IMG/VR virus record: IMGVR_UViG_3300031998_000008
Coordinates: 143,930 to 207,929 of that record
Reading direction: 5' to 3' (one strand)
Source of the DNA: a virus
Lineage: Duplodnaviria; Caudoviricetes
Length of the DNA: 64,000 nt
In this document: in pieces, positions 1,609-62,903 of the stretch
Position numbering within the stretch: the first letter of the stretch is position 1
Layout of the letters: the number at the start of each line of letters is the position of its first letter
Notes under the pieces: generated by a model
The model's database searches: none
Seen by the model: only the letters and a program-made list of their open reading frames with translations
Told to the model about the DNA's origin: nothing
Program-made: the position numbers and the translations under genes

Positions 1609-1638
1609 AAAAAGCCCGATTTAGTTCGGGCTTTTTTT
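1609..1638. terminator. Bidirectional intrinsic terminator
   Basis: AAAAAGCCCGA-TTTAGT-TCGGGCTTTTTT between convergent genes. Confidence 0.8.
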
Positions 1639-22051: not shown

Positions 22052-22201
22052 TTACATGTGAGACTTAAAAACTATTTGTCTCTTTTGTGTTCTTGAACCT
22101 CTTCTTGTACCATTTGAATAGGTTTGTGCAGGTTTCTTTACAATCTGTTTAACAGATGTAACCTGTCTTGATGATGAAGTATTTCCTTTACATGCGCACA
22201 T
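22052..22201 (-). CDS. Small basic protein (MCACKGNT..., 49 aa)
   Basis: ORF read by eye; preceded by the ACTATTTAT motif seen before other genes. Confidence 0.5.
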   Translation of the reverse strand: MCACKGNTSSSRQVTSVKQIVKKPAQTYSNGTRRGSRTQKRQIVFKSHM

Positions 22202-22347
22202 AATTTAATAATTTTAATTATAAATAGTGTATGTGCTTGATTTTTTGGAAGAAAATTTGTATATTATGATAAAATCAAGGTAATTCCTTGCGTTGCTTTG
22301 GTTTTTGACATTAGCAAGGTAATAATAATTTAATAATTTTTAAAGTT

Positions 22348-22377
22348 ATGAGATACTAGGTTTTGTGGCCCCCTTAA
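22348..22377 (+). promoter_or_regulatory. Putative amber-containing leader ORF MRY(TAG)VLWPP
   Basis: ATG AGA TAC TAG GTT TTG TGG CCC CCT TAA after an A/T-rich leader, upstream of the Pth-like gene and suppressor tRNA. Confidence 0.45.
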
Positions 22378-22452
22378 TCGTTAATTCTTATTATGTTGGG
22401 TTAAAAAATATGTGAAAACAAAAAATAATAATTACAAATAAAAAGATTAACG

Positions 22453-22857
22453 ATGAAAGAAGAAGTAAAACAATTAAGAGAAGAAATTGCAGCCTTGGAA
22501 AAAGAACAAATCAACATGAAGGCTCAAAGAAAGACCGTCAATTTGAAAGTTGAAAGAACGGTCAACCCATTTGAAGCAGCAGATAACGTAAGATACAATA
22601 GAGGTAAATTAAGAGTTATGTATGCTGCATACGGACTGATGAGAGGTAAACGATTCGAGCAAATCGAAAACCACTATGACAAAGAAAATAACGAGATTCA
22701 CCCATTATACGGGCTTGCATCTAACATAAACGACATATTGAAGAAGTATGGCTACACGATGGAGTACGAAGAAGTACAGACATGGTACGGTAAGAGGAAA
22801 GAATTTAAAAAAGATTGCGATGAAAAGATTGTACGTATTGGTGAACAGGAGGCTTAA
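22453..22857 (+). CDS. hypothetical protein
   Basis: 134 aa ORF; LR..Y.AYGLMRGK.F.QIE. Confidence 0.75.
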   Translation: MKEEVKQLREEIAALEKEQINMKAQRKTVNLKVERTVNPFEAADNVRYNRGKLRVMYAAYGLMRGKRFEQIENHYDKENNEIHPLYGLASNINDILKKYGYTMEYEEVQTWYGKRKEFKKDCDEKIVRIGEQEA

Positions 22858-23107
22858 TCCTGTTTATGGATGTGTACAAGGCGGTCATGCAGTCGCTCAG
22901 TTTATGATAGACAACCCTAATCAGGATTGGGGAAACGAGTTTTTGATTTATTTGTACGCAGACGTTGATAGGTGGGCTGATAAATTGAAGAATATGGGTG
23001 TTAAACATTCAATCTTCAAAGAGCCTGATTTGAACAATTCCATAACAGCAATCGCTTGTCAAGATGATTCTGGGGAGTTATTCAAAAATTTAAGCGTAGT
23101 TAAATAA
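22820..23107 (+). CDS. Peptidyl-tRNA hydrolase 2-like protein
   Basis: LYVLV...L.....VQGGHAVAQF..F.EPDLNNSITAIA resembles the Pth2 fold. Confidence 0.65.
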   Translation: MKRLYVLVNRRLNPVYGCVQGGHAVAQFMIDNPNQDWGNEFLIYLYADVDRWADKLKNMGVKHSIFKEPDLNNSITAIACQDDSGELFKNLSVVK

Positions 23108-23146
23108 CTTAAAAAAGGTATATGGGGAACCTATAATCCCCATAAT

Positions 23147-23217
23147 GGTTCATTGGGCCATCGGTTGGCCAGGCGTCTCTAAAACGCTAAAGAAGGGTTC
23201 GACTCCCTTATGAGCCG
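23147..23217 (+). tRNA. Amber suppressor tRNA, anticodon CTA
   Basis: Acceptor GGTTCAT/ATGAGCC, D stem GGCC/GGCC, anticodon GGCGT-CTCTAAA-ACGCT, T arm AAGGG-TTCGACT-CCCTT. Confidence 0.9.
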
Positions 23218-30704: not shown

Positions 30705-31340
30705 ATGAAGAAAGTATTTATTTTATTGATGGCAATTTCTTTGATGTTTTCATTCAATTCTTGCGATTGGTTTAACAAGAACAAGGATAATGAGAAAAAA
30801 GAAATTATCGTGGAAAACGTAGTTAAAGCAGACAGAGACTACATGACAGAAAATTATGGTAATACCTACGTATGGTATGAAACACAAATTTCTTTGAATG
30901 ACTATCTTGATGAAGAATGCGATGGCTCATTCTCAGAGATTGTAGATGTGTTCCAAGTTATCACTACAACTGACAGTGTAACATTTGATACCAAAGTAAT
31001 TAAGATGTACCATGTTGCTGATTCTTCATACATTGAAGAAATTGAAGGTTTCTGGGTTGAAGACATGAATATGAACGATGAAATCATTTCAGTCACTTAC
31101 AAACAAGCATTCCAACTTATTAATGAAGTAAACTTCCCAAAACCACATTCAAAGAATTGTGTTTTGAGAAAAGAAGTTGGCCCAATTGAAGCTAATCCTC
31201 AGTATATCTTTGGCAACATTGAATCACAATTGTATGTTGATGCATTGACAGGTGATGTAACTGATGAAAGCCCAAGTTTCTGTGACGAAGTTATTGAAAA
31301 CGACAGCATCGAAGATGTAAACACTCAATTTGGTGAGTAG
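30705..31340 (+). CDS. Putative lipoprotein
   Basis: MKK + hydrophobic stretch + FNSC lipobox; acidic mature part. Confidence 0.75.
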   Translation: MKKVFILLMAISLMFSFNSCDWFNKNKDNEKKEIIVENVVKADRDYMTENYGNTYVWYETQISLNDYLDEECDGSFSEIVDVFQVITTTDSVTFDTKVIKMYHVADSSYIEEIEGFWVEDMNMNDEIISVTYKQAFQLINEVNFPKPHSKNCVLRKEVGPIEANPQYIFGNIESQLYVDALTGDVTDESPSFCDEVIENDSIEDVNTQFGE

Positions 31341-32719: not shown

Positions 32720-32849
32720 AGGAATTCAACAGCAACTTTTAATTTCGTTTGACTGTAAATCAAAAGGTTATTGGTTCGAATCCAGTTGTTGCATTAGAGA
32801 AATCGAAGGCGACATAGCTCAATTGGTAGAGTAAGAAAAAGTGATTCCT
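32720..32849 (+). ncRNA. Circularly permuted tRNA-Tyr(GTA) mimic on an ACAGCA stem
   Basis: AGGAATT/GATTCCT; TTTGA-CTGTAAA-TCAAA; T arm; TGTTGC..GCGACA; TAGCTCAATTGGTAGAGT. Confidence 0.82.
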
Positions 32850-33310: not shown

Positions 33311-33661
33311 TCGGATGTTGTTGATATTCAAAGAAAAGTCCGTAAGACGAGGGTTCGACTCCCTCCGGGTCCACCATATTGGGTGCGCCATGTTGAGTAC
33401 CAACCATACTAGTTATACGGTTCTTATGATTCATGGTACAATACCAAGTAATTTGAAAAACTTGGTTCGGGTTTAAAATTGGGGTTCAACTCCCTGGCAT
33501 CCAACAACTTTCAAACATGGGCCCGCTTGGATTTGATTGCGAATGAATACAATGGAAGGAGATATTCGAGAAGCCAATAAATGGCAATGAAAATTATGCA
33601 TATGCAGTTGCAGCCTAAGCTAGGTTAGCAAATGCAGGTTGGCAGCGAACCAAATCGCTGC
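33311..33661 (+). ncRNA. ssrA: Two-piece (circularly permuted) tmRNA
   Basis: Acceptor piece ends T arm-CGGGTCC-ACCA at 33376; coding piece starts GGGCCCG..GGATTTGA at 33519 (G3:U70); tag GNENYAYAVAA-stop at 33583-33618. Confidence 0.88.
33380..33504 (+). ncRNA. tRNA-like element in the tmRNA intervening segment
   Basis: TGGGTGC/GCATCCA-A, TGGGG-TTCAACT-CCCTG, ACCAAGT/ACTTGGT hairpin. Confidence 0.55.
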
Positions 33662-34608: not shown

Positions 34609-34735
34609 GGAGGTATAGTTTAGTGGTAGAATGACGTAAAATGAAAATAGCATTTTGGTCATTTAAAAATGTTAACAGCATATGAGTTCAATGCCTTTCC
34701 CGCCGTTGATGTAGGTTCGATTCCTGCTGCCTCCG
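34609..34735 (+). tRNA. tRNA (TTC, Glu) with 56-nt ACAGCA-module insert (34637-34692)
   Basis: Removing the insert gives ACGGC-CTTTCCC-GCCGT. Confidence 0.75.
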
Positions 34736-34889: not shown

Positions 34890-35021
34890 TGGCCAGTAGC
34901 TCAGTTGGCAGAGCAACGGAATGAAAAGAAAACGCATTTTGGCCTAAAGATGTTAACAGCAATGAAAAATTTTCGACTGTTAATCCGTGGGCCGCAGGTT
35001 CGAGTCCTGCCTGACCAGCCA
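34890..35021 (+). tRNA. tRNA-Asn(GTT) with 56-nt ACAGCA-module insert (34920-34975)
   Basis: Removing the insert gives ACGGA-CTGTTAA-TCCGT; encoded GCCA end. Confidence 0.82.
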
Positions 35022-50884: not shown

Positions 50885-51350
50885 TATATTTCATTTTCAC
50901 ATAAATAGTCTAATTTTACACTAAAAAAATATATGGAAAAATTTTTTCGAAAAGTAGTACCTACTGAAAAAAAAGACCCCCCCCTCATGGAAAATCGTTT
51001 TTTTTAGGTGTTATCCGTGGAATTTTTTTTGAATTTTAATTTTAATTGGTCTTACCCTACGTTTGGCCGAAATTTCCGGAAAAAATTTTCACACGCAATT
51101 GTGCGGGCCTATTTGAAAAAAGTGCCGTGGGGGACTCGGTGAGGGGGATAACGCCACCACATAGCCCCCATATAGCCCCCACAAGTATATTTTTTTCTTC
51201 CATATTGTTGCAGTTTGGCACGATTGTTGCAGTGTATTGTAGTGTTCATTCTGTTCTTGATTAAGGAAACAAAAAAAAAGTTTCAAGCCGTGAGCAGTTT
51301 GGCACAATTATTGTAAGAGTAATAGTATAACCAATTAAAATTAAAAAGTC

Positions 51351-51932
51351 ATGGAAACAACCGCAAGAAAGTACAAGAAAGAAACCTTCATTGAATATGC
51401 CAAGCACATTGTAGAAGGATATAAGACAATCATTGCAGCCTACGGAGTAATTTCGAAGGTTGGCTTGACGATGCACGGAAAAGTTTTCAACAAGCGTTTT
51501 GAAAGTGAGATTGAAAAACACTGCAAGGAAGAAGGTATCAATGTTTCTATTTGGGTGAACGACCAATATAATATGGGGTATAAAGATTTGAAGATTTACC
51601 TCCAAGACAGGTCTTTCAATGGCGGCGATTGTTGGATTTACTTCGACAATGACATCTACCACAACAACATTCACAACTGCAACAATGCCTTCGTTGATGG
51701 CGACAATAGAATCATTGGCGTTAAGGTTGCCGAAACTTGCAATGAATATATTGAACTTTGCAAGAAAGACATGACAAAGTGGCAGGATGCGGCAGACAAC
51801 TATGACAAATATGCAGAGCAGGTGACAGCCGCTTTGAAGCAGTTGAATGAAGCCTTTGAAGGTCTTAACTCACTTTTCAAGCCTTACACCATTTCCCAAT
51901 ATGATTGGGAGAATGAAGCGAAGAAAAAATAA
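51351..51932 (+). CDS. hypothetical protein
   Basis: Follows promoter motif and A-rich leader. Confidence 0.8.
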   Translation: METTARKYKKETFIEYAKHIVEGYKTIIAAYGVISKVGLTMHGKVFNKRFESEIEKHCKEEGINVSIWVNDQYNMGYKDLKIYLQDRSFNGGDCWIYFDNDIYHNNIHNCNNAFVDGDNRIIGVKVAETCNEYIELCKKDMTKWQDAADNYDKYAEQVTAALKQLNEAFEGLNSLFKPYTISQYDWENEAKKK

Positions 51933-52073
51933 TATACGCAAATGCGTACTTTGGCACGGAATTTGTAAGTAGTAATATCGAAACAATCAATAACCCAAAA
52001 CACTGACGGAGGCGGTTGGTGTCCACAAACAAAGTGGTTTAATTACCTTGAAGGAAGGATAGCCTAAAACAAC

Positions 52074-52403
52074 ATGGTTAAAATGATTCTCGTTGCTATG
52101 GTTGGAAAACTCGCTCAAACCATTATGAACATGATGGGCGTTCCGAACTCCACTGAAAACACCGAAAAAGCCCTCGCCATTGCCGAATGCGTTGTTTCGG
52201 TTGAAATGGGTGAAAAGAAAACGAAGGCAATCTCAAAACTCTATCGTGACCTCGGCTTGAATGGTTGGCGCAACGAAGCCATGACACACGCCACCATCGA
52301 AGCCTACGAGAATGTCAAAAAGTCAGGCGGTGACGAATTGGCAGTTTTGCTCGAAGTTGAGCGATTGAGAACGGGAGCCGACTTTGTGGGTCTTGAACTC
52401 TAA
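52074..52403 (+). CDS. hypothetical protein
   Basis: Follows promoter motif; terminator after. Confidence 0.75.
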   Translation: MVKMILVAMVGKLAQTIMNMMGVPNSTENTEKALAIAECVVSVEMGEKKTKAISKLYRDLGLNGWRNEAMTHATIEAYENVKKSGGDELAVLLEVERLRTGADFVGLEL

Positions 52404-52528
52404 ACGAACAAGGGAAAAGGGGAAGCAAAAAAAAGTTTCCCCTTTTTTCGTTTTTTGAAAATCCTGGCACAATTATTGCTTATATTGTAGTGAACATTAT
52501 TTATTAACCCAATTAAAAACACAAAACT

Positions 52529-52804
52529 ATGAAAATGAAAGCCACTTTTTTCGTAATGTCAATGACTGAATTTGTTGATGGAGTTGAATACCACAACAAG
52601 CCGACAGCGCACAGCAACGAACAAGAAGCCGAAGCAGCCATGAACAAAAAGGCTGATGAATGGATTTCAACATTCAAGGGGATTGATGATTTCAAGCCGA
52701 AAGATGCAAGAACTTGCGACACCATCGAAGTCAAAGATGAAAACGCACCCGACACCTACATCAAGATTTGGATTGACAAGGTGAGTTTGGAAGTTGAAAT
52801 TTAA
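52529..52804 (+). CDS. hypothetical protein
   Basis: Follows promoter motif; terminator after. Confidence 0.75.
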   Translation: MKMKATFFVMSMTEFVDGVEYHNKPTAHSNEQEAEAAMNKKADEWISTFKGIDDFKPKDARTCDTIEVKDENAPDTYIKIWIDKVSLEVEI

Positions 52805-52907
52805 TCAACAAAAAAAAATAATGGCGGTGCTAAAAAAAGTGCCGCCATTTTTCATTTTTGGAATGGTTTTTGTATTCTATTGTAGTGAACACTAAAACAC
52901 AAATGCT

Positions 52908-53195: not shown

Positions 53196-53243
53196 ATTTT
53201 TGGCATGATATTTGTGTATTATTATAGTGAACATTAAAAACGA

Positions 53244-53480
53244 ATGACTATGAACTACGAAGAACTTGTTTCCAAAGTTGGCGAAGAGAACGTACATTGC
53301 TGCAACATTTGTGGCAAACCGCTTGAATGGGACGATAACATTTGGATAAATTCCAATTTTGGAGTTTGTGAAGATTGTTACAACAAAATTCCCCAAAGGA
53401 TTCAAGATAAGATAGAAGAAGAATTGTACGAGGAGGAAGAGGTGAAAAATTATCTTGATTCAGTTGGCGCAATCTATTAG
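53244..53480 (+). CDS. Small zinc-finger-like protein
   Basis: CCNICG..VCEDC; TAG stop. Confidence 0.7.
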   Translation: MTMNYEELVSKVGEENVHCCNICGKPLEWDDNIWINSNFGVCEDCYNKIPQRIQDKIEEELYEEEEVKNYLDSVGAIY

Positions 53481-53530
53481 TTTGGCACGATTATTGATGT
53501 ATATTAAAGTGAACGTAAAAACACAAAACC

Positions 53531-53764
53531 ATGAGTAAATTAGTCAATGGCACTTGCCCCGAAAACGAAAAGCGTTTTGCTATCATTAACCCTACATCAT
53601 ATAATTGTGATGGTAATTGGGCGGTCACTATCTGCGAAAGCAATGAACTTGGCGACCTCGGTCTTGACGATGACGAAATCAAGCAGGTTGAGCAGTTGGA
53701 AGTTGGCGAAAGATGGGCGGAATCTTTTTATGGATTGAACGCACAAATTGTTAGGTTGGGATAG
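53531..53764 (+). CDS. hypothetical protein
   Basis: Follows promoter motif; TAG stop. Confidence 0.7.
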   Translation: MSKLVNGTCPENEKRFAIINPTSYNCDGNWAVTICESNELGDLGLDDDEIKQVEQLEVGERWAESFYGLNAQIVRLG

Positions 53765-53956
53765 CAGTTTGGCACGATTGTTGCTTATTATTTCAGTGAA
53801 CAATTAAATAACAAAAGCAATGGGAGAGTTTATACTTGGTTTTTTAGTTGGATTTATGGCAATGTTCTTGATTGCTTGCAAGATGGATGAACCTACAAAA
53901 TAGTTTTGGCACGATTATTGTAAGTAATATAGTGTAACCAATTAAAATTAAATACC

Positions 53957-54133
53957 ATGAGTAAAGTTTATATGAAGGTCACGCTCAACTTGATTGTTGA
54001 TACTGACATTCCCGAAACGGCAGACATTATGGAAGGTCTTGATTTTGAAGTCACTCCTAATGGTGAGGCTGACGATGACATTGAAGTTTACGATGTGGAA
54101 GTGGAAGATTACGAAGTAACCGATTCAAAATAA
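53957..54133 (+). CDS. hypothetical acidic protein (58 aa)
   Basis: MSKVYMKV...VTDSK read by eye after promoter motif. Confidence 0.65.
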   Translation: MSKVYMKVTLNLIVDTDIPETADIMEGLDFEVTPNGEADDDIEVYDVEVEDYEVTDSK

Positions 54134-54139
54134 AAAGCC

Positions 54140-54334
54140 ATGAGACTTAAAATAATAGAATTGATTTGGTCAGCCATTTTGGTAATTGCTTGCATTTCAA
54201 TTTTGATTTGGCAGATTATCATTAAGTCACCGATTTTCGTAATTGGAATGTTCGCTTTCATGGCAATTATGGCCTTGATTATTCTTGTCCATATCATCAA
54301 AGAAATAAAGGAGGAAAAACATGGGAAACAATAG
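54140..54334 (+). CDS. Small membrane protein
   Basis: Two hydrophobic segments. Confidence 0.65.
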   Translation: MRLKIIELIWSAILVIACISILIWQIIIKSPIFVIGMFAFMAIMALIILVHIIKEIKEEKHGKQ

Positions 54335-54593
54335 CCTTTGGATTGTGAAGTTTGCAAGTGAGAAACGGGAGCAGCCGAATTTCCCCAATTTTACGAATCT
54401 CAATGCAGCCAAAACGTACTGCAATTCAGTCCTTTCCGATTACGGCAAGAAAAAGCATTTGGACGGAGGCGAAATTCTCCACGTTGTAAATGGCGAAATC
54501 ATTTCAAAGGTTGCTGTGGACTACGTTGGATTTGATGAATTGTATTACAGCGATGTTCACATTCTCCATAAAAAAATCCCATACAAAGGATAA
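54321..54593 (+). CDS. hypothetical protein
   Basis: Overlaps previous stop. Confidence 0.65.
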   Translation: MGNNSLWIVKFASEKREQPNFPNFTNLNAAKTYCNSVLSDYGKKKHLDGGEILHVVNGEIISKVAVDYVGFDELYYSDVHILHKKIPYKG

Positions 54594-54668
54594 TATATAC
54601 GCAATTGCGTACTACTTTGGCACGATATTTGATTATAATTAAAGTGAAATCATTAAATAATTAGAATT

Positions 54669-54869
54669 ATGACTTTTGTAGCAGCCATTCAATTAATTTT
54701 ATTGTGCATCCAACTAACGTTCTTGGCAGGAACGATTTACTCAACCACTAAAAAGGGCGAGGAACAAATCAAGAAAGAATTTAAAATGGAAACCCAAAAG
54801 TTCAGAAACATTTGCCTATACGGAAACTTGGGTTGCATGGCAATCATTTTGTTGCTGAATCTTTTCTAA
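54669..54869 (+). CDS. Small membrane protein
   Basis: Follows promoter motif. Confidence 0.65.
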   Translation: MTFVAAIQLILLCIQLTFLAGTIYSTTKKGEEQIKKEFKMETQKFRNICLYGNLGCMAIILLLNLF

Positions 54870-55070
54870 AAGTTTGGCACGATATTTGATAAAGAAACAA
54901 TGACGATGTTATCGGGAATGGTAAGTTCGCCCTATGCGAAGGGAGGTCTTTGGTGAGATTCCAAAGGGTAGCGCTAATCGTCATGCTTGCGCAAGCCCCC
55001 CATGTGTCCCTTGGTCGCAATACAAGGGACACCCTTGGGGAATAGAAAACAACAACAAAAACATAAAACT

Positions 55071-55394
55071 ATGAGAATCAATTTCAACATCAAGCCATAC
55101 TCCGATTTTACGGGAATTGGCACTAAAAAAGAAGCACTTGCACGTCTTGAAAGCCGATGGGGACTTCGTGCGGTTCCTAATTGCTTTTCGACTTATGGAG
55201 ATTTCCAACATCGTGGACTTGACAATGATACCGCTTGGCTCTACACCATTCAAGTGTATAAGCACGGCAAGCATCGCAAATGCAAGAATTATCATGTTTG
55301 GGTCTATCGTGTTCCGATTAAGACTTTGGAAGTTCTTGGAATCAAGATGAGCCAAATGCGCAACGGAATCAAGATTGAAAAACTCAATAAGTAA
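55071..55394 (+). CDS. hypothetical basic protein
   Basis: ATG after A-rich leader at 55071. Confidence 0.65.
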   Translation: MRINFNIKPYSDFTGIGTKKEALARLESRWGLRAVPNCFSTYGDFQHRGLDNDTAWLYTIQVYKHGKHRKCKNYHVWVYRVPIKTLEVLGIKMSQMRNGIKIEKLNK

Positions 55395-56014
55395 ACCATG
55401 TTGTTTGCAGGGGAGGGACAAAAAAGTTTCTCCCCTTGCCCATTTTGGCACGATTCTTGTGTATTATTGTAGTGACAATTAAAATTAAAAGCCATGACAA
55501 AAGCAGAATGTATTTCAAGAGGTTGCCCGATGCTCATCAAAAAGAGAGACAAGGTTACGATGTTGCCTTATTGGGTCTGCGGTGTAACCAACCAAGACGT
55601 TAAGAAAGTCCATAACTGCGTAAACAAGCCACATTAAACCATGAACAAAGAAAGATTTATTGAAATTCTATCCAAGCCGATGAGCGAGGTAATGAATGAC
55701 CCAACTATCTCCGATGAAGAGTTTTCATTTTGCATGGAAAACTGCGAAAAAAATATTGACGAAATCGAATTTGACGAATAGTTTGGCATAGATTTTGATT
55801 ATTATTTTAGTGAACATTAAAACAAAACAACATGGGAACAAAGACTTACAAAGTAAACCGAAAAAAGGCAATCGAACTTGCCATGAATCATAACAATGTG
55901 ACAAGGGAGGTTGCTGAACGTTACACCGATAGCGAACTGAAGGAAGTGCTTGCTCATCTTTCGGGCAGATTCTTTAAGATGGAAGCCGATTTCTAACCAT
56001 TAAAACAATTAGCC

Positions 56015-56320
56015 ATGCAATTCAGCGAATTAAGAGAAAACATCATCACCAATCTTTGCACCGACATCATCAATAAGCAATTAGCGGCAATGTTAGCCAT
56101 GAATATTGACATGGAAACTTCGTTTGAAGAAAGCAAGGAGGAAATTGTAATCTTTACCAATTCCCATGTTGGATTTATCGGTGTTTCTTTCATTGAAGGA
56201 AATCTGCGCTTCATCAAAGGCGATGGTACAACCGTGTTGGCAAAAGATTATATTTCAAACGAATATTATTACGAAACCGTACTTCAAATTTGGTATGCTT
56301 TTCGGCACGATAGCAAATAG
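56015..56320 (+). CDS. hypothetical protein
   Basis: 101 aa; TAG stop. Confidence 0.7.
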   Translation: MQFSELRENIITNLCTDIINKQLAAMLAMNIDMETSFEESKEEIVIFTNSHVGFIGVSFIEGNLRFIKGDGTTVLAKDYISNEYYYETVLQIWYAFRHDSK

Positions 56321-56370
56321 TTTGGCATGATTATTGCTATAATTGAAGTGTAACAATTAAAATTATAATT

Positions 56371-56592
56371 ATGGCTACACAATCCGACATTGCGCTGATT
56401 AGTTCTAATCCATTTGTCATTAAAAAGGAGCATGGAACGAGACCTTCATATTTGAAGTCATTGCCGAATCATTTTACCGATGACATTTCGGAAGCGAGAA
56501 AGTTTGCGACTGAAACGGCAGCAAAGAACAATATGCTCAAAATCACAACCTATTCACTGAATCCAAACCATTATTCAATCATTAGGCTATGA
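56371..56592 (+). CDS. hypothetical protein
   Basis: Follows promoter motif. Confidence 0.65.
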   Translation: MATQSDIALISSNPFVIKKEHGTRPSYLKSLPNHFTDDISEARKFATETAAKNNMLKITTYSLNPNHYSIIRL

Positions 56593-56783
56593 GCAAAGAA
56601 AGAGACTTTAAGGGTGAACTGAAAGCCCTTCTTGAAGATGTTGCAAAAAGCGGATGGGAGGCAGCAATCCCCTCATTGATTGCAGAGTGCTTGAAAGACG
56701 GAAAGTTTGAAAATATCTCAAATTGGGATTTGTTGGACTGCACGGCTTATCAATGCCATAAGTATAAAAAGCAAATAAAATAA
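56589..56783 (+). CDS. hypothetical protein
   Basis: ATGA overlap. Confidence 0.65.
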   Translation: MSKERDFKGELKALLEDVAKSGWEAAIPSLIAECLKDGKFENISNWDLLDCTAYQCHKYKKQIK

Positions 56784-57194
56784 GTGTTCATATCTTTTGT
56801 GTTTTTGGCCGGAAATTTCTTGTAAGTTTCCGACTTTTTTTTATTACTTTGGCATGGTTTTTGTGTATTATTGTAGTGTATATTAAAACGAATCACCATG
56901 AACGACACACAAAAGATTGAAGCAATCAAAAAAGAGATTGAAAGCACTCACTTGAATACATTGGAGGATATGGGCGAAATGCTTGATAGCATCATCCGTA
57001 TTGTCTATGGAGTTGAAAAGACAAAACCATTATTTGAAAAGAAAGGGATTTGATTATGGAAATTTTATGTGCTTTTTTGCTTTTGTGTGTTATTGCAATG
57101 ACAATTACCTGCATTTATGTATCAAACAAAAGTCAAAAGGAAAATGATGAATTGAGGAAAGAACTCAATGAATTAAAATCTCAAATAGATAGTT

Positions 57195-57473
57195 ATGGTA
57201 ACGATAGATAGTTTGTTTCACTTGGTAAAGCATTATCATTTGGACGATGATGAAAATTGCTTTGACAAGGCGATAGAAATGGCAAGCAACCAACTTTCCG
57301 ATGTGTTGGAAAAGGAAAGGGAATATCCACCATTTATTTACTATTTGTGCTTGGAGCAAATGGAGAAGAATCCAAAGTACAAGTTTGGCAAAACATTTCA
57401 TTCAATGAATGATGAAGAAAAAACTTGTGTATTCAATGAAACAATTTCAGCATTGAAAGCACTTTTGGCATAG
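57195..57473 (+). CDS. hypothetical protein
   Basis: 92 aa; TAG stop. Confidence 0.65.
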   Translation: MVTIDSLFHLVKHYHLDDDENCFDKAIEMASNQLSDVLEKEREYPPFIYYLCLEQMEKNPKYKFGKTFHSMNDEEKTCVFNETISALKALLA

Positions 57474-57530
57474 TTTTTGATTATAATTTGAGTACAAACA
57501 AACACATTATTAACTTAAATCTAAATTACA

Positions 57531-58040
57531 ATGAAGAAAATCTTTTTTGCTATCGCCATTATTTTTGCCACTACACTTGTTGGCTTCGCACAATCAACGG
57601 CTATCCATTTTGATAATGGAAAATATGACATGATGCTTCACCCGAAAAACCCAACGGGTCAAAACATCGAAGTTGTCACTTTCATTGGCTATGATGCAAT
57701 TTCGCAAACTCGTTCAACGAAGAAAATCGAAGTTGATTACGAAGTTATTGATGGCGTTCAATATGCTTTGGAGAACTCAAAAAGAATGAAAAAGTTTGCT
57801 ACTACTGAACTAATAGGTCTTGGCGTTTGCCTTGCAGGTGGAGAACTAATGCACTATTCATACAAACAATTTGGCAAGCACCCGAATGACCATTATAAAA
57901 ATTTAGCCTATGTTGGAGGTGCGGTTGCTATGGCAGGTGCTTTGACTTGTATTTTAGGCTATATTCCGCTATTGAATGACCATGTTTATGTTACAAACAA
58001 TGGGATTGGAATACGATACAAGATTAAAAGTTTGAATTGA
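57531..58040 (+). CDS. Secreted/membrane protein
   Basis: MKKIFF..GFAQ signal peptide; two C-terminal hydrophobic segments. Confidence 0.75.
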   Translation: MKKIFFAIAIIFATTLVGFAQSTAIHFDNGKYDMMLHPKNPTGQNIEVVTFIGYDAISQTRSTKKIEVDYEVIDGVQYALENSKRMKKFATTELIGLGVCLAGGELMHYSYKQFGKHPNDHYKNLAYVGGAVAMAGALTCILGYIPLLNDHVYVTNNGIGIRYKIKSLN

Positions 58041-58151
58041 CCCCATGCGAGAATGTAAATATTTGTAAAAAAGTCACTTTTCGGAGTGGCTTTTTTCATT
58101 TTTGGCATGGTATTTGTATTATATTGAAGTGAACACTAAACACAAAAGACT

Positions 58152-58457
58152 ATGGCTAATAACATTGAAAATTACCAAAAGTGCCAATGCGGTGCAATAA
58201 CTTTCTACTTTGAAGATGGAAGTTCAAGCAGTATGCGCCAACGCACTGCAAAGAAGATGGGAATTGATTTGAGGCACTATAAGAGCCTTAGACCAACTTG
58301 GAATTGCAATCATTGTGTTAATCATTGGGGAACTGACATCTGCGAATGTGGCAGTGGTGAAAAGGTTGGAAAATGTTCTTGCGGCTCCAATAGACCAATG
58401 CAAGAGTTTGGCATAAATTTTGATTCATTTAGCCGTATAATTCAAAACTTTTGCTAA
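58152..58457 (+). CDS. Cys-rich zinc-binding protein
   Basis: CQCG, CNHCVNH, CECGSG, CSCG. Confidence 0.75.
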   Translation: MANNIENYQKCQCGAITFYFEDGSSSSMRQRTAKKMGIDLRHYKSLRPTWNCNHCVNHWGTDICECGSGEKVGKCSCGSNRPMQEFGINFDSFSRIIQNFC

Positions 58458-58458
58458 C

Positions 58459-58869
58459 ATGGAATTGAACGAGATAAGGAATAAAATGGCTCAACTTTTG
58501 GAAGAGCATAAAGCCCTTGAAGAAGAGTTGAAGAACGCTATGGTGGCTATCATCAATGAGACAGCAGAAGAAAGCCCGAATAAGAAAAAGAGAATAGCCA
58601 AGCATATTTTTATTCTTAATGCTTCTGACATCATGGGTAATCCGTGGAATGTAGAGTTTTACGATTGGGAGGCTTCTGCAAAGGTTGTCTTGGATTATCT
58701 TGAATTGAAACCTATCTACGATTGGAAAGCATTGTTGGAAAAGAAGTTAGAAGAAGCCAAACGTAATGTGGTAGAGTTTAAGAAAATATCATCTTGCATG
58801 GGTTACAAAACTACCTATGTAATTCCAATTAGCAAAGAATTTGTTGAAAAAATTGTAGCCAAAATGTAA
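58459..58869 (+). CDS. hypothetical protein
   Basis: 136 aa. Confidence 0.7.
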   Translation: MELNEIRNKMAQLLEEHKALEEELKNAMVAIINETAEESPNKKKRIAKHIFILNASDIMGNPWNVEFYDWEASAKVVLDYLELKPIYDWKALLEKKLEEAKRNVVEFKKISSCMGYKTTYVIPISKEFVEKIVAKM

Positions 58870-58923
58870 TGTTTTGGCACGATTATTGTTTATTATTATA
58901 GTGTAATCTAAAAACGCAAAAAA

Positions 58924-59259
58924 ATGATACACGCAACTTTTAAAACGATTGATGATATAATCAATAATTTTAATTTGGTTGGTGGAATGAGTTTGTCGTT
59001 TGGTGATAACAGCAAATTTTCCACTTCCCATTTTGACATCAATGCAAATAATGATTCAATTCCATTTAAGGAGGGTTGGATTAAAAACATTAGTCTTTAC
59101 TATGCGGAGAACGAGGAAACGGGTAAAACTGAACTGCGAACTGACATCAAAATTGAACTTAAACTATATTGTTCTTGTGCTGAAAGACCTACAATGATAG
59201 TCAATAAATCTTGGTTTGATAAAAATGTATCAAACATTAGTGTTTGGGGCATCAAATGA
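58924..59259 (+). CDS. hypothetical protein
   Basis: Follows promoter motif. Confidence 0.7.
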   Translation: MIHATFKTIDDIINNFNLVGGMSLSFGDNSKFSTSHFDINANNDSIPFKEGWIKNISLYYAENEETGKTELRTDIKIELKLYCSCAERPTMIVNKSWFDKNVSNISVWGIK

Positions 59260-59316
59260 TTTATTTTGGCATGATTTTTGTGTATTATTTTCAACGTAAA
59301 TTAAAACCAAAATACA

Positions 59317-59628
59317 ATGAGCAAAGTAAGAGAATTAGAAGATAATGTTTCGCAAGACAATTTGTTTACCATTGGTAAGCAACTTATTCAGTGTATTGGG
59401 TTTATGGATTGGTGCTATTGTCAATACAACACCGATAAAAGAACAACCGAGGATTTAGTCCTGCACAATGAAAATGCAAGGTACGATAGTCCCGATAGAT
59501 GGTGGAGGTATCGCTTTTTCCGCCTTTGCCGACTGCCTTTCAAGGTCAAATACAAGTGGGTTGGCTATGACCACGTTTTCAAAGTAAGACCCGAAATTTG
59601 GATTAGGCTTTATCACATCAAAGACTGA
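59317..59628 (+). CDS. hypothetical protein
   Basis: Follows promoter motif. Confidence 0.7.
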   Translation: MSKVRELEDNVSQDNLFTIGKQLIQCIGFMDWCYCQYNTDKRTTEDLVLHNENARYDSPDRWWRYRFFRLCRLPFKVKYKWVGYDHVFKVRPEIWIRLYHIKD

Positions 59629-59679
59629 TTTGGCACGATTCTTGTAGTATATTGTAGTGACAATTAAAATTAAAATACC

Positions 59680-59886
59680 ATGAAAGGAATAGACATTATT
59701 AATTATATCAAAGAGAACAACCTTGAAGATGCAGAGGTAAGTGTGACCGCTACAATCTACCGACAAGGCGACCACGATTGCAGAACAACAACAAATGTTT
59801 CCGTTATGGAATCGTCAGTCTATGACGATGAACAAAGGAAATATGTTCCTGCCATTGATTTCTATGTGGATGATGAATTGTATTGA
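59680..59886 (+). CDS. hypothetical protein
   Basis: Follows promoter motif. Confidence 0.7.
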   Translation: MKGIDIINYIKENNLEDAEVSVTATIYRQGDHDCRTTTNVSVMESSVYDDEQRKYVPAIDFYVDDELY

Positions 59887-59938
59887 GTTTGGCACAAAAT
59901 TTGTAGTAATTGAAGTGTAACCTTAAAAACATCGAACT

Positions 59939-60211
59939 ATGAAAAAGACAGCAAGGATTTCAAGAATCAACGCAATGTTGGATAGTCATTTCAAGTCCAA
60001 TCATGGCGCATGGTGGGTTTCCAACAGCAACGGCTATAAGGAAATGATTGAATTGCACCGAGGTCAAGGTGGCGACAAAATCAATCCCGTTTGGATAGCC
60101 AAATACATTTTCCGCCACGAAGCAAGTGTAAACATCATTCACTTTGCAGGTTGTTGCATGGTCTATACGAGAGAGAGCGTAAAACTTTACGATAGAGCCG
60201 TGAAAAAGTAA
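59939..60211 (+). CDS. hypothetical protein
   Basis: Follows promoter motif. Confidence 0.7.
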   Translation: MKKTARISRINAMLDSHFKSNHGAWWVSNSNGYKEMIELHRGQGGDKINPVWIAKYIFRHEASVNIIHFAGCCMVYTRESVKLYDRAVKK

Positions 60212-60264
60212 AAATTGGCACGATTTTTGATTATAATTGTAGTGTAACCTAAAAACATCGAACT

Positions 60265-60690
60265 ATGAGAAACGAAGTCGTAACCATCCAAGTCCCTAAT
60301 GTTGGAACTATCAACGTTTCCTCCACAATGAGAGGCGAATGTAAGGGAACTAAAATGTTTGACCTGCGCCACTACGTTTATAGGCTGCGCATTTGGAGCG
60401 AACACGATAAAATGACCTGCAATTTCCATGACTGCGCCTTCAATTATCCGAGAGTTAAGAAACTCAATAGGGAGGCTTTGCTCAACGCTTTAGATTGTGT
60501 TTTGTCCGATATTTCCATGTATCTTAACGATGAAATCAAATGGAATTATGACGATGAGGATGCAGCCCTTATGAGAATTGCCGAAAAGGGATGCAAGCGT
60601 GAATCCGAGGCATTTTCAAAAGTCGTTGGCGGTGACGATAATCTTTGGACTGCCATAGAATTTTTGACAGATTACATCAACAACCATTGA
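60265..60690 (+). CDS. hypothetical protein
   Basis: Follows promoter motif. Confidence 0.75.
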   Translation: MRNEVVTIQVPNVGTINVSSTMRGECKGTKMFDLRHYVYRLRIWSEHDKMTCNFHDCAFNYPRVKKLNREALLNALDCVLSDISMYLNDEIKWNYDDEDAALMRIAEKGCKRESEAFSKVVGGDDNLWTAIEFLTDYINNH

Positions 60691-61223
60691 TTTTGGCATA
60701 GTTTTTGTTTATATTTGTAGTGTAAATAAAACTCAAAATTATAGATGAAAAAGAAAAATTAAACGCAATTAGAACTGAAATAGACAAGTGGTTTTCCGAT
60801 GAAGAAAAGTCAGCAGTTGACACCTTGAAAAGAATCTCCAACATTCTCAAAAGGAATGATTTCGATATGGATGAATACTGCGAACAACTTCACGATTCAG
60901 TAAATGTGTAACAATGAAAAAAGAAGAAATCATCAAAATGGCTAAAAGCCTTGCGGAGCGTCATTTGATTGACCCCTATATCCCCGATGTGCTAACTGAT
61001 GGCTCAACGTATGCGGAGGAATTTCTTGCAAAGTTGTCAGTAGCCGAAACCGAAGATGGATTGCTGAAAAGAATCCAAGAGGTAATGAGTTAGAGAATTA
61101 TCATAGTCGAGTTTTTAATATGCGGTTGGGTGTGGAAACTTTCTCCTTTCAATTCCACACCCACGCTGTAAGGTTTGGCACGATTATTGCTTATATTGTA
61201 GTGAACAATTAAAATTAAATACT

Positions 61224-61463
61224 ATGGGTTGGGTAAAAAAAGAAACCATTAAAGATGAAAAACTTTTGAAAGAATTAAAAGAAGTTTTTCCCGACAAATT
61301 TTCCATTTTAAGAGGTGTTACAAGAAGTTGCAGCAGTTCAGTCTATGAGTATCTTACGGACTATATTCGTGACTATTACGATGTAACGTTGGCTCAATGT
61401 GACCGAGTTTCCAAGCGGATTGCTCAACATTACGAAATCAAGCAGTTTTACCATAAACACTAA
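61224..61463 (+). CDS. hypothetical protein
   Basis: Follows promoter motif. Confidence 0.7.
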   Translation: MGWVKKETIKDEKLLKELKEVFPDKFSILRGVTRSCSSSVYEYLTDYIRDYYDVTLAQCDRVSKRIAQHYEIKQFYHKH

Positions 61464-61648
61464 AAAAACGGCTGTAAGTATTCCTATCAAATAAATGAAA
61501 AAGCGGTGCAACAATGTACCGCTTTTTTTGTGCATAAGATTCACAACAATACACCACAATATCCGTGCCAAAGTGGTGAAAATCTTGAAAAAAGTTTGGC
61601 ATGGTTTTTGATGTATATTGTAATGCAAACCAATTAAAATTATAATCC

Positions 61649-61912
61649 ATGAGCAAAACCACCGATGAACTTATCCAAGATAGGATAGACAGCGCAAATA
61701 AAGATTTTAGAGAAAACGAAACAAGCATGATTGCCGAAATCTACGACCTTCAAACAATGGTAGTTTGTATTGTAATTGAATGGGGAGATTGGAAGCATGA
61801 GCATGGCTATGCTGATTATATCATGGAACAGCATGGATTCAAGAAATTAAAGGAAGATGTGACGGAGGAAGATGGAAGCGATTGTTATTCCTCAATTCAT
61901 TATTATAAATGA
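61649..61912 (+). CDS. hypothetical protein
   Basis: WGDWKHEH..EEDGSDCYS. Confidence 0.75.
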   Translation: MSKTTDELIQDRIDSANKDFRENETSMIAEIYDLQTMVVCIVIEWGDWKHEHGYADYIMEQHGFKKLKEDVTEEDGSDCYSSIHYYK

Positions 61913-61967
61913 AAAGTTTGGCATAATTTTTGATATAATAATAGAGTAATCAATTAAAATTAAAGAT

Positions 61968-62327
61968 ATGAAAAACTTTATTCAAAATGAACTTGTTTGC
62001 CTTCGTGCGTTAGAGCCGATTGGCTGCGATAGATACGAGGAACTTTCAAAGGCTATTCAATGGCTTGACGAAAACACCTTGAAAGAGGGAGAGAAAAAAG
62101 AAGAGGTTAATAAGCCCCAATACGCCCATACTACAATCCGTTGGAAAGATGACAATAGCGAAGAGGAAACCATCATTGCCATTGGTTGCCCTTACATTGA
62201 AAAGTACGATGAGCAAATTCTTTTCTACTGCGAAAACCAAGAAGATTTTGAAAACTTGAAGCACTACGAAAACGGACAAGATTTCTACATTGATGGCTGC
62301 ACCATGTTCACTGAAACATTGGATTAG
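61968..62327 (+). CDS. hypothetical acidic protein
   Basis: Follows promoter motif; TAG stop. Confidence 0.75.
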   Translation: MKNFIQNELVCLRALEPIGCDRYEELSKAIQWLDENTLKEGEKKEEVNKPQYAHTTIRWKDDNSEEETIIAIGCPYIEKYDEQILFYCENQEDFENLKHYENGQDFYIDGCTMFTETLD

Positions 62328-62379
62328 TTTGGCACGAAATTTGATGTAGTAAGAGAGTAACCAATTAAAATTAAAAACT

Positions 62380-62829: not shown

Positions 62830-62903
62830 TATATACGCAAATGCGTACTGATTTGGCACGATATTTGTAAGATAGTAAGCATAACAAATTAAAATTAAAA
62901 TCC

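What the first reader, a model, noticed from the sequence alone, without database searches (positions are those of the whole stretch)
23147..23217. Amber suppressor tRNA with region-specific TAG avoidance but no visible recoding
Seen: a clean cloverleaf with anticodon CTA. Long genes have no internal TAG. Among the called genes in 1-51 kb the stops are TAA/TGA except 30705-31340, where TAG is backed by TAA two codons later. In the 51-64 kb small-gene zone TAG stops are common (53478, 53762, 56318, 57471, 62325). Known: Lak and some crAss-like gut phages recode TAG and carry such tRNAs. Inference: suppression is switched on after early transcription, either as an incipient code change or with recoded genes elsewhere in the genome.
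Basis: partly seen in the sequence, partly recalled or inferred. Interest (0 to 1): 0.75.

Follow-up and report, generated by a model that had tools for sequence, protein, structure and literature searches.

The report
Amber tRNA with read-through-gated operon
A giant cattle-rumen phage that uses the normal genetic code carries a genuine UAG-reading tRNA. Its only visible target is one UAG in a tiny leader at the head of its own small operon, which looks like a natural sensor of stop-codon read-through. The uneven spread of TAG stops that prompted the finding is a by-product of genes overlapping promoters.

Summary
The tRNA(CUA) at 23147-23217 is real, and its family is conserved with many compensatory changes. 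The genome is not recoded. The 208-kb contig is about 56% complete and reads densely under table 11. So do two near-complete relatives (393 kb and 376 kb) that carry the same tRNA. TAG stops really are enriched in the 51-64 kb small-gene zone, but 7 of 8 lie inside or against a repeated sigma-54-like promoter motif.

The tRNA does have a target. It ends an operon: a leader mini-ORF (22348-22377, M-R-Y-UAG-V-L-W-P-P-UAA), an unknown ORF (22453-22857), a Pth2-fold hydrolase (22820-23107), then the tRNA. This UAG-then-Pro-Pro-stop leader occurs once per genome, at the cassette. It recurs in 11 of 12 related tRNA(CUA) loci. In 9 of 10 loci the Pro-Pro-stop region pairs with the next gene's start codon.

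I infer that read-through stalls a ribosome that unmasks that start codon. Two metatranscriptomes hold an abundant RNA contig set that ends at the tRNA's 5' end.

This scan has noted the same design on other phage DNA. I found no paper describing it.

The parts
22321..22347 (+). Approximate 5' end of the cassette transcript, with a conserved AT-rich block (TAATAATAA...AAAGTT) ahead of the leader. The promoter is not identified.
   Evidence: RNA contigs of two metatranscriptome studies begin at 22321 and 22328 while DNA contigs run on. The block is conserved in L047 and L048. No sigma-54-like motif lies between 17 and 25.8 kb.
22348..22377 (+). Leader mini-ORF AUG AGA UAC UAG GUU UUG UGG CCC CCU UAA, read as M R Y [UAG] V L W P P stop. 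The UAG is at 22357-22359, Pro-Pro at 22369-22374 and UAA at 22375-22377.
   Evidence: Read from the sequence. The pattern M-x(1-8)-UAG-x(1-12)-P-P-stop stands upstream of the Pth2-like gene in 11 of 12 tRNA(CUA) loci. It occurs once in all of G000 and once in G007, each time at the cassette, against 0.45 and 0.25 in shuffles. Binomial p is 9e-33, treating loci as independent.
22377..22386 (+). 5' arm of the masking helix, AUCGUUAAUU. It starts at the last base of the leader's UAA.
   Evidence: It pairs base for base with 22445-22454, read. RNAduplex gives -12.4 kcal/mol against a shuffled mean of -5.1 (3 of 1000 shuffles as good). Equivalent helices with different sequences occur in 9 of 10 loci.
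22445..22454 (+). 3' arm of the masking helix, GAUUAACGAU. It includes the A and U of the ORF-X start codon.
22453..22857 (+). ORF-X, 134 aa, function unknown. It has an N-terminal helical hairpin and a small C-terminal sheet. It is conserved in the cassette and ends TAA.
   Evidence: ORF list. Homologues stand between leader and Pth2-like gene in all 11 loci. AlphaFold2 gives pLDDT 89.5. There is no Pfam family and no convincing PDB match.
22820..23107 (+). Pth2-fold (peptidyl-tRNA hydrolase 2-like) protein, 95 aa. Its start overlaps the end of ORF-X by 38 nt. It has no in-frame TAG and ends TAA.
   Evidence: PHROG 3668 'hydrolase', E 1e-10. AlphaFold2 pLDDT 94.6. The nine Foldseek hits with E <= 0.001 are all Pth2 proteins (2zv3, 3erj, 1q7s, 1xty; TM 0.66-0.78, probability 1.0). 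The best profile hit in the PDB is 2zv3, E 0.36, full length. The start was set.
23121..23144 (+). Hairpin TATGGGG-N10-CCCCATA, two bases before the tRNA. A GGGGA...TCCCC hairpin stands at the same place in L048.
   Evidence: Sequence. RNA contigs end at 23126 and 23145.
23147..23217 (+). tRNA with anticodon CUA (amber-reading) and discriminator G73. No CCA is encoded.
   Evidence: In the family alignment of 17 tRNAs, 16 of 18 pairs show compensatory changes.
53478..62327 (+). TAG stops of small early-type genes that are embedded in or abut the next sigma-54-like promoter motif, starting at 53478, 53762, 53901, 55779, 56318, 57471 and 62325. They explain the regional TAG excess and are not part of the cassette.

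Best explanation
The tRNA(CUA) is the last gene of a self-monitoring operon in a phage that otherwise uses the standard code. The operon has four parts: a leader mini-ORF, ORF-X, a Pth2-like hydrolase and the tRNA.

Shown:
- The operon layout and its conservation.
- The single UAG at codon 4 of the leader, followed in frame by Pro-Pro-UAA.
- A helix joining the Pro-Pro-stop region to the ORF-X start codon, kept in 9 of 10 loci by different sequences.
- The 38-nt overlap of ORF-X with the Pth2-like gene.
- Abundant RNA contigs that span 22.32-23.145 kb and stop at the tRNA's 5' end.

Inferred mechanism:
1. The primary transcript is cut at the tRNA's 5' end, as RNase P would cut it, and this releases the tRNA.
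2. If release factor 1 wins at the leader's UAG, the ribosome leaves about 18 nt before the helix. The ORF-X start codon stays paired and the genes stay off.
3. If charged tRNA(CUA) reads the UAG, the ribosome runs on to Pro-Pro-UAA, a context known for slow peptide-bond formation and slow termination.
4. The paused ribosome covers 22377-22386 and melts the helix. ORF-X is translated, and by coupling so is the Pth2-like enzyme.

The two proteins are therefore made only when suppression is actually working. Their job is probably to process or limit the products of suppression, such as peptidyl- or aminoacyl-tRNA(CUA).

The phage's own genes need no UAG decoding. TAG is simply its rarest stop, as in other low-GC phages.
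For: tRNA: it is genuine and its family shows compensatory changes in 16 of 18 pairs.

Standard code: the 208-kb contig reads as table 11, as do relatives G007 (100% complete) and G004 (98% complete). Both relatives carry tRNA(CUA).

Linkage: 19 of 22 loci found with the Pth2-like protein have a stop-anticodon tRNA within 0.7 kb. That is 14 of 17 after merging identical loci.

Leader: it is present in 11 of 12 CUA loci with diverged peptides (MRY#VLWPP, MTH#VLNPP, MTY#VLINAPP, MKH#INLIPP, MTKH#LIRPP, MT#VNQQRPP, MH#VHKPP and others). It is unique in each whole genome.

Masking helix: -12 to -23 kcal/mol against -4 to -6 for shuffles in 9 of 10 loci.

Pth2 fold.

Same logic by another route: in G004 the only TAG in 376 kb with coding potential on both sides lies inside the Pth2-like gene.

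RNA: contigs from two studies cover 22321/22328-23126/23145 at word depth 23-325, against 0-7 in the flanks.
Against: - Nothing here shows that the tRNA is charged, that it reads the leader's UAG, or that a ribosome stalls at W-P-P-UAA.
- The leader lacks the Arg of the characterised R-A/G-P-P arrest motif.
- RNAalifold on a MAFFT alignment found no consensus structure. The helix rests on pairwise duplex calculations.
- One of the 10 loci (L055) shows no helix. ORF-X starts in the relatives were set by a simple longest-ORF rule.
- Contig depths are a poor measure of expression, and contig ends are only a weak hint of RNA ends.
- The model does not say what suppression is for, since a loop that only reads its own leader has no evident benefit.
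- The relatives with UCA or UUA tRNAs, and G004, lack the Pro-Pro-stop leader.
Confidence: 0.62

Rival explanations
1. One reading: suppression is switched on after early transcription as part of a real or incipient code change. Early genes may use TAG stops, and recoded (TAG-containing) genes lie elsewhere in the genome.
For: The contig is only about 56% complete by CheckV. The tRNA lies outside the sigma-54-like promoter class. TAG is rare as a stop, 6.6% overall. Borges et al. propose stop-codon depletion, then gain of a suppressor tRNA, as the route to recoding (bioRxiv 10.1101/2021.08.26.457843). TAG-recoded Lak phages share the Pth2-like gene next to a stop-reading tRNA.
Against: Seven of the 8 TAG stops in the early zone are explained by promoter overlap, and the remainder is uniform. 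The contig already holds structural and replication genes in the standard code, including tail sheath, prohead protease and DNA polymerase. The 100%- and 98%-complete relatives with the same cassette show no gain under code 15. They have none, or just one, TAG-interrupted gene.
Confidence: 0.07
2. The tRNA's main job is general read-through of UAG stops in the infected cell, on host transcripts or on the few phage genes ending in TAG. The aim would be to damage host proteins or to make extended phage isoforms. The leader, ORF-X and Pth2-like genes would be only a safety or feedback device.
For: The cassette must have some output beyond its own leader. The phage keeps TAG rare, and 4 of its 7 non-early TAG stops have a second stop within two codons. 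Cultured standard-code jumbo phages also carry suppressor tRNAs without known targets, such as XacN1 (PMC5852040) and Atu_ph07 (PMC6102473).
Against: The backup-stop excess is not significant, p = 0.22. TAG rarity is ordinary for low-GC phages and varies among relatives that carry the cassette: 4.9% in G004 and 8.8% in G007. No read-through extension with coding potential was found. Early genes ending in TAG would gain 5-41 residues with no sign of selection against it.
Confidence: 0.18
3. The leader senses release-factor-1 activity and not the tRNA. The tRNA would be a constant probe, and the operon would switch on when UAG termination fails. That could happen when a host defence or a co-infecting TAG-recoded phage disables RF1.
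For: The outcome at the leader's UAG depends on competition between RF1 and the tRNA, so either partner could be the variable. TAG-recoded Lak and crAss-like phages infect related gut Bacteroidota hosts. The phage also encodes its own tmRNA.
Against: No sequence evidence bears on RF1. The tRNA is made from the same transcript, so its level is not constant. No release-factor gene was found in the contig.
Confidence: 0.08
4. The tRNA is a neutral or decaying relic, for example a mutated sense tRNA, and the leader is coincidence.
For: No TAG-interrupted protein gene exists in the contig. The tRNA has no close paralogue among the other 33 tRNAs (best 63% identity). Its discriminator, G73, differs from the A73 of most of the family.
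Against: The cloverleaf and CUA anticodon are conserved with compensatory changes across loci whose Pth2-like proteins are only 38-75% identical. The operon position is fixed. The leader's recurrence has p about 1e-32. The cassette RNA is abundant in two metatranscriptomes.
Confidence: 0.03

Closest known systems
Orphan suppressor tRNAs of standard-code jumbo phages: Xanthomonas phage XacN1 with two tRNA(CUA) (PMC5852040) and Agrobacterium phage Atu_ph07 with tRNA(UCA) (PMC6102473)
   Same: A large phage with a big tRNA set and the standard code carries a stop-reading tRNA and a peptidyl-tRNA hydrolase gene. In-silico read-through of its stops finds no hidden coding sequence.
   Different: Those papers report no target and no link between the tRNA and the hydrolase. 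Here the tRNA is operonic with the hydrolase and has a candidate target in the operon's leader.
Stop-codon-recoded phages with suppressor tRNAs (code 15 in Lak and crAss-like phages; Borges et al., bioRxiv 10.1101/2021.08.26.457843; Peters et al., PMC9523058)
   Same: A phage-encoded tRNA(CUA), a low-GC genome with few TAG stops, and gut Bacteroidota hosts. Lak phages hold a 46-50% identical homologue of the cassette's Pth2-like gene, with a stop-reading tRNA 0.65 kb away.
   Different: No protein gene here contains TAG, and coding density does not rise under code 15. The Lak-type loci rise from 0.61-0.66 to 0.87-0.90. They carry anticodon UUA and lack the Pro-Pro-stop leader.
Regulatory arrest-peptide leaders that unmask a downstream start site (SecM-secA, MifM-yidC2, ErmCL-ermC, and the R-A-P-G/P class ApcA, ApdA and ApdP; Sakiyama et al. 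2021, PMC7897499)
   Same: A short upstream ORF ends in a proline-rich stalling context. The mRNA under the stalled ribosome pairs with the next gene's start region.
   Different: The stalling context can be reached only by reading through a stop codon with a tRNA encoded in the same operon. The motif here is W-P-P-stop, without the Arg that is essential in the characterised class. Stalling is untested.
Archaeal and eukaryotic peptidyl-tRNA hydrolase 2 (Pth2; PDB 2zv3, 3erj, 1xty, 1q7s)
   Same: The same fold (TM 0.66-0.78) and matching motif positions: Q-x-G-H-A in helix 1, and D...T-A in the last strand region.
   Different: Only 10-17% identity, and no Pfam hit at E <= 0.001. It is shorter, at 95 aa. 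The substrate is unknown.

Membership tests
Canonical elongator tRNA | Cloverleaf with 7-bp acceptor, 4-bp D, 5-bp anticodon and 5-bp T stems, plus U8, G18G19, U33 and T-loop TTCRA | tested here: met
   ARAGORN. Rfam RF00005 at 50.9 bits against a gathering score of 29. Hand fold. The family shows compensatory changes in 16 of 18 pairs.
Functional amber suppressor tRNA | Anticodon CUA in a 7-nt loop with U33 and a purine at 37 | tested here: met
   The loop is C-U-C-U-A-A-A. CUA is kept in 13 related loci.
Functional amber suppressor tRNA | Aminoacylated in the host and inserts a residue at UAG | not testable with these tools
   G73 and U35 would suit GlnRS, and the A73 of most relatives would suit LysRS. 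That rests on E. coli identity rules recalled from memory, not on a test. Aligning TAG codons of Lak-type loci to standard-code homologues gave no alignments.
TAG-recoded (code 15) phage | Many genes with in-frame TAG, and coding density that rises clearly when TAG is read as sense | tested here: not met
   Coverage is 0.910 under table 11 and 0.926 with TAG as sense, no more than with TGA (0.928) or TAA (0.920) as sense. No TAG has coding potential on both sides inside a gene. The same holds in G007 and G004.
TAG-recoded (code 15) phage | Phage-encoded tRNA(CUA), often with a release factor or tRNA synthetase | tested here: inconclusive
   The tRNA is present. No RF-1 domain was found in the 208 kb, and the contig is only 56% complete. 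Synthetases were not searched.
Pth2 (PF01981) peptidyl-tRNA hydrolase | Pth2 alpha/beta fold | tested here: met
   The AlphaFold2 model has pLDDT 94.6. The nine Foldseek hits with E <= 0.001 are all Pth2 proteins, E down to 3e-5, TM 0.66-0.78.
Pth2 (PF01981) peptidyl-tRNA hydrolase | Sequence match to the Pfam family above its cut-off | tested here: not met
   The 119-aa reading frame gave no Pfam family at E <= 0.001. The profile against PDB sequences reaches only E 0.36 for 2zv3. I therefore call it 'Pth2-like fold'.
Pth2 (PF01981) peptidyl-tRNA hydrolase | Hydrolysis of the peptidyl-tRNA ester bond | not testable with these tools
   The invariant residues Q20, G22, H23, E68, P69, D70, T76 and A77 align with conserved Pth2 positions. 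Activity is untested.
R-A/G-P-P regulatory arrest peptides | An R-A-P-G/P (or R-G-P-P) motif at the arrest site | tested here: not met
   The window's leader ends V-L-W-P-P. Relatives end NPP, APP, IPP, RPP or KPP, and none has R-A/G-P-P. Only Pro-Pro is shared.
R-A/G-P-P regulatory arrest peptides | A short upstream ORF whose stalled ribosome frees the start site of the next gene | tested here: met
   This is the geometry only. The helix 22377-22386 / 22445-22454 lies within reach of a ribosome with UAA in its A site, and 9 of 10 loci keep such a helix. Stalling itself cannot be tested here.

The most novel reading that the evidence does not exclude
Phages carry a natural sensor that asks whether stop-codon read-through is working. 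A suppressor tRNA, by reading one UAG in a leader, drives a ribosome onto a Pro-Pro-stop pause. That pause unmasks the genes for an unknown protein and a Pth2-like tRNA hydrolase in the tRNA's own operon. This regulated suppression module, present in standard-code megaphages and in altered form in TAG-recoded Lak phages, would be the platform from which phage stop-codon recoding evolves.
Probability: 0.5. Interest if true: 0.82.

Novelty: new variant of a known kind. Interest (0 to 1): 0.68.

Why it matters
Suppressor tRNAs in phages that do not recode have been an open puzzle since at least the XacN1 paper, which found no targets. This window gives a concrete, testable target (one UAG at 22357-22359) and a mechanism that can be tested with a reporter and a toeprint.

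If it holds, three things follow:
- It is a new kind of translational switch, a stop codon gating an arrest-type leader.
- It ties a Pth2-like hydrolase and an unknown protein to the control of suppression.
- It offers a regulated intermediate on the road from the standard code to code 15 in gut phages. It could also serve as a compact natural part for controlling amber suppression in engineered systems.

The check also shows that a striking regional pattern of TAG stops can arise purely from genes overlapping promoters.

Tried and rejected
- Identifying the phage: megablast of 6 kb and tblastn of an 886-aa protein against GenBank phages found nothing.
- Recoding: table 11 compared with TAG, TGA or TAA read as sense gave no specific gain.
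- Genes with an early in-frame TAG after a short ATG leader: all 31 stop-to-stop candidates, and the 28 predicted genes bounded upstream by TAG, were overlaps with the end of the preceding gene or non-coding.
- TAG with coding potential on both sides: two candidates in G000. One is an out-of-frame neighbour and the other runs through a promoter.
- A TAG inside or just before the window's Pth2-like gene, as earlier notes describe for other phages: absent here. The in-frame TAG upstream in L047 and L048 lies inside the overlapping ORF-X.
- Paralogue origin: the best match among the phage's own tRNAs is 63%. Reciprocal best hits with G004's tRNA set are ambiguous.
- Identity of the inserted residue, by aligning TAG codons of Lak-type loci to standard-code homologues: no alignments.
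- Consensus RNA structure of the leader region by RNAalifold: none. The single-sequence fold is not better than shuffles, z = -1.2. The helix appeared only in targeted duplex calculations.
- ORF-X function: no Pfam family and no Foldseek match. VIA-align best Z of 8.5 covers only the N-terminal helical hairpin, which is within the noise for helical models.
- Sigma-54 DNA-binding domain and RF-1 domain in the contig: none found.
- A T4-type late promoter TATAAATA ahead of the cassette: the copy at 22219 faces the other way and fits a small minus-strand ORF.
- Cultured phages with the full cassette: the Aeromonas (Aeh1) and Stenotrophomonas (RAS14) homologues have no tRNA nearby.
- Pro-Pro-stop leaders in the loci with UCA or UUA tRNAs, L053 and G004: none within 2.3 kb.
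- Theta or HDV-like ribozyme next to the tRNA: no Rfam match at E <= 10.

Full report
WHAT THE WINDOW IS. The window is the last 64 kb of a single 207,929-bp IMG/VR contig. The contig is linear and CheckV rates it 56% complete. It has 33% GC and belongs to a large myovirus. The contig encodes a tail sheath, a prohead protease, a DNA polymerase, a primase and an anaerobic ribonucleotide reductase. Near-identical DNA occurs in cattle, sheep and goat gut metagenomes from many studies. All 34 ARAGORN tRNAs of the contig lie in the window.

THE OBSERVATION. The tRNA at 23147-23217 is genuine. ARAGORN finds it and Rfam's tRNA model scores it at 50.9 bits. It folds by hand into a regular cloverleaf with anticodon loop CUCUAAA. 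It stands 2.7 kb before the main tRNA island and has no close paralogue there. My gene set for the contig gives TAA 155, TGA 30 and TAG 13. That is one TAG stop in window 1-51 kb and six in 51-64 kb, Fisher p 5e-4. Two further TAG stops end small ORFs outside that set.

WHY TAG STOPS CLUSTER. The 51-64 kb zone holds about 33 plus-strand copies of the motif TT-TGGCAYGAT-N-TTG, against 3 expected by chance. Each copy stands about 50 nt before a small gene. The motif matches the -24/-12 layout of sigma-54 promoters, and three more copies lie in the tRNA island. Half of the genes there end within a few bases of the next motif. The two bases before TTTGGCA are A in 24 of 33 copies and G in 15 of 33, whether or not a stop is present. 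A stop placed there therefore tends to be TAG. Seven of the eight TAG stops are TAG-TTTGGCA, TAG-cag-TTTGGCA or TTGGCA-TAG-TTTTTG. Among promoter-anchored genes, stops abutting the next motif are TGA 5, TAG 4 and TAA 4. The others are TAA 8, TGA 5 and TAG 0. With the five motif-embedded stops of my gene set removed, 1 of 15 against 7 of 178 is left. With all six zone TAG stops of that set removed, it is 0/14 against 7/178, p = 1.

NO RECODING. Table-11 ORFs cover 0.94-0.99 of each 20-kb bin outside the tRNA island and the small-gene zone. Reading TAG as sense adds no more than reading TGA or TAA as sense. Three separate scans found no gene interrupted by TAG. Because the contig is incomplete, I fetched two relatives that share the gene order ThyX-like ... 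Pth2-like ... tRNA(CUA). G007 is 392,823 bp and 100% complete. G004 is 376,291 bp and 98% complete. Both use the standard code, with TAG at 8.8% and 4.9% of stops. G007 has no TAG-interrupted gene above background. G004 has exactly one TAG with coding potential on both sides, inside its Pth2-like gene 1.8 kb from its tRNA(CUA). Recoded genes in the missing part of this genome are therefore unlikely.

THE tRNA'S NEIGHBOUR. Earlier notes of this scan, made on other genomes, gave the lead, and I tested it here. The gene ending 40 nt before the tRNA starts at ATG 22820 and encodes 95 residues. Its AlphaFold2 model has pLDDT 94.6, and the nine Foldseek hits with E <= 0.001 are all peptidyl-tRNA hydrolase 2 structures. 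It has no Pfam hit. Searching IMG/VR with this protein gave 22 loci. Nineteen have a stop-anticodon tRNA within 0.7 kb, which is 14 of 17 after merging identical loci. The tRNA is CUA just downstream in eleven loci. It is UCA in one, UCA plus CUA in one, and UUA in seven. The seven UUA loci are Lak-type megaphages, and their loci read far better with TAG as sense. The 17 tRNAs align without gaps in the acceptor and T arms, and compensatory changes occur in 16 of 18 pairs. The tRNA and the hydrolase gene are thus inherited together and kept by selection.

THE TARGET. Aligning the region upstream of the cassette with its closest relatives showed a conserved block, AAAGTT-ATG-NNN-NAC-TAG-RT...CCY-CCN-TAA. 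It reads as a mini-ORF. In the window it is AUG AGA UAC UAG GUU UUG UGG CCC CCU UAA at 22348-22377. The pattern of Met, 1-8 codons, UAG, 1-12 codons, Pro-Pro and a stop is found upstream of the Pth2-like gene in 11 of the 12 loci that have tRNA(CUA), with clearly diverged peptides. It occurs once in the whole of G000 and once in G007, each time at the cassette. Shuffled genomes give 0.45 and 0.25. Treating loci as independent, p is 9e-33. Between the leader and the hydrolase gene every locus has an ORF of 90-170 residues, which I call ORF-X. Its end overlaps the hydrolase start by 23-38 nt in most loci. ORF-X folds confidently but matches nothing known.

THE SWITCH. In the window, 22377-22386 (AUCGUUAAUU) begins at the last base of the leader's UAA. 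It pairs with 22445-22454 (GAUUAACGAU), which includes the first two bases of the ORF-X start codon. In 9 of 10 loci the stretch from the Pro-Pro codons to 16 nt past the stop forms a duplex with the 30 nt around the ORF-X start. The energies are -12 to -23 kcal/mol, against -4 to -6 for shuffles, and the sequences differ from locus to locus. In several loci CCA-UAA pairs directly with UU-AUG-G. A ribosome ending at UAG (A site at 22357) reaches only to about 22371, so the helix stays closed. A ribosome with UAA in its A site covers about 22388 and must open the helix. Pro-Pro followed by a stop is a context of slow peptide-bond formation and slow termination. That comes from established work on C-terminal proline and on TnaC, which I cite from memory. 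The R-A-P-P class is documented in PMC7897499. I therefore infer a read-through-gated arrest leader: ORF-X, and by coupling the hydrolase, are translated only when tRNA(CUA) beats release factor 1 at the leader. G004 reaches the same end by placing the TAG inside the hydrolase gene itself.

EXPRESSION. Contigs from two metatranscriptomes of separate studies, one cattle and one sheep, cover 22321/22328 to 23126/23145. Their word depth is 23-325, against 0-7 for the flanking contigs, and DNA contigs run on across both ends. The 3' end coincides with the tRNA's 5' end at 23147. This fits one transcript that carries the leader, both genes and the tRNA and is cut as RNase P would cut it. The evidence is weak, because contigs show neither true ends nor levels.

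WHAT REMAINS OPEN. These points are untested or unknown:
- Whether the tRNA is charged, and which residue it inserts.
- Whether a ribosome stalls at the Pro-Pro-stop.
- The promoter class and timing of the cassette.
- The purpose of suppression beyond the leader.

The hydrolase may recycle or limit suppressor-tRNA products. Alternatively, the leader may report on release factor 1. Both ideas are speculative.

LITERATURE AND EARLIER NOTES. Orphan suppressor tRNAs in standard-code jumbo phages are published. So is the idea that suppressor acquisition precedes recoding. I found no paper that combines Pth2, suppressor tRNA and bacteriophage. Several earlier notes of this scan describe the same stop-gated leader with a Pth2-like gene and a suppressor tRNA on other phage DNA. 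My tests here agree with them, with two differences. This clade uses x-P-P-stop where those notes describe R-G-P-P. The window's hydrolase gene also carries no TAG of its own.

Noticed in passing
window 51214-63772, plus 25854, 27032 and 27971: About 36 plus-strand copies of TT-TGGCAYGAT-N-TTG, a sigma-54-like -24/-12 layout. Each stands about 50 nt before a small gene or, in three cases, before tRNA genes. No sigma-54 DNA-binding domain is encoded in the contig.
   Followed up: partly
window 33314-33618: A permuted (two-piece) tmRNA inside the tRNA island. Rfam RF04321 scores 63.4 bits, and ARAGORN gives the tag GNENYAYAVAA. With the Pth2-like gene and the suppressor tRNA, the phage carries three elements that act at stalled or terminating ribosomes.
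   Followed up: no
window 34609-34735, 34890-35018 and 32732-32793: Rfam tRNA hits of 127-129 nt (tRNAs with inserts of about 55 nt) and one short 62-nt hit. ARAGORN does not call any of them. No tRNA-Gln is among the 34 ARAGORN tRNAs. Earlier notes of this scan treat the inserts.
   Followed up: no
window 22328 and 23145 (RNA run X16): One 311-nt RNA contig at depth 71 joins 23145 to 22328 through the letters CCT. This links the 3' end of the cassette RNA to its 5' end (tables 5 and 5c). It could be an assembly loop in a very abundant RNA or a circularised or ligated molecule. It is unexplained.
   Followed up: no
L057-L063 (Lak-type contigs) and GenBank MK250015-MK250029: TAG-recoded Lak phages carry the Pth2-like homologue (46-50% identity) with a tRNA of anticodon UUA (ochre-reading) 0.65 kb upstream. 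Yet TAA ends that very gene, and TAG is the recoded codon. How a UUA tRNA is tolerated, or whether it mainly reads UAG by wobble, was not examined.
   Followed up: partly
L051:4001-4279 and L053:2381-2653: The Pth2-like genes of these two relatives have in-frame TGA at positions where all others have Trp. L053 also carries a tRNA(UCA). Either the gene is opal-gated or the phages read TGA as Trp.
   Followed up: no
L050:3250-3455: This relative has two copies of the leader (MTY#VLINAPP*) about 170 nt apart ahead of its cassette.
   Followed up: no
L090 (Stenotrophomonas phage RAS14, OP752703) 2015-2800: In this cultured jumbo phage the Pth2-like domain is fused to an N-terminal HD-domain phosphohydrolase, next to a valyl-tRNA synthetase gene, with no tRNA nearby. 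The fusion points to a role at tRNA 3' ends.
   Followed up: partly
window 22064-22213 (minus strand) and genome-wide: TATAAATAG lies in many intergenic regions but faces away from the gene it precedes, so the gene strand reads CTATTTATA 25-35 nt before the start codon. Examples are the tail sheath gene and a basic ORF of about 50 aa at 22064-22213. This may be the late-promoter element of the phage.
   Followed up: no
window 1638-4148 (minus strand): An 836-aa protein with an N-terminal InPase (inorganic pyrophosphatase, PF18823) domain and a C-terminal cREC_REC (cyclic-phosphate processing receiver, PF20274) domain.
   Followed up: no
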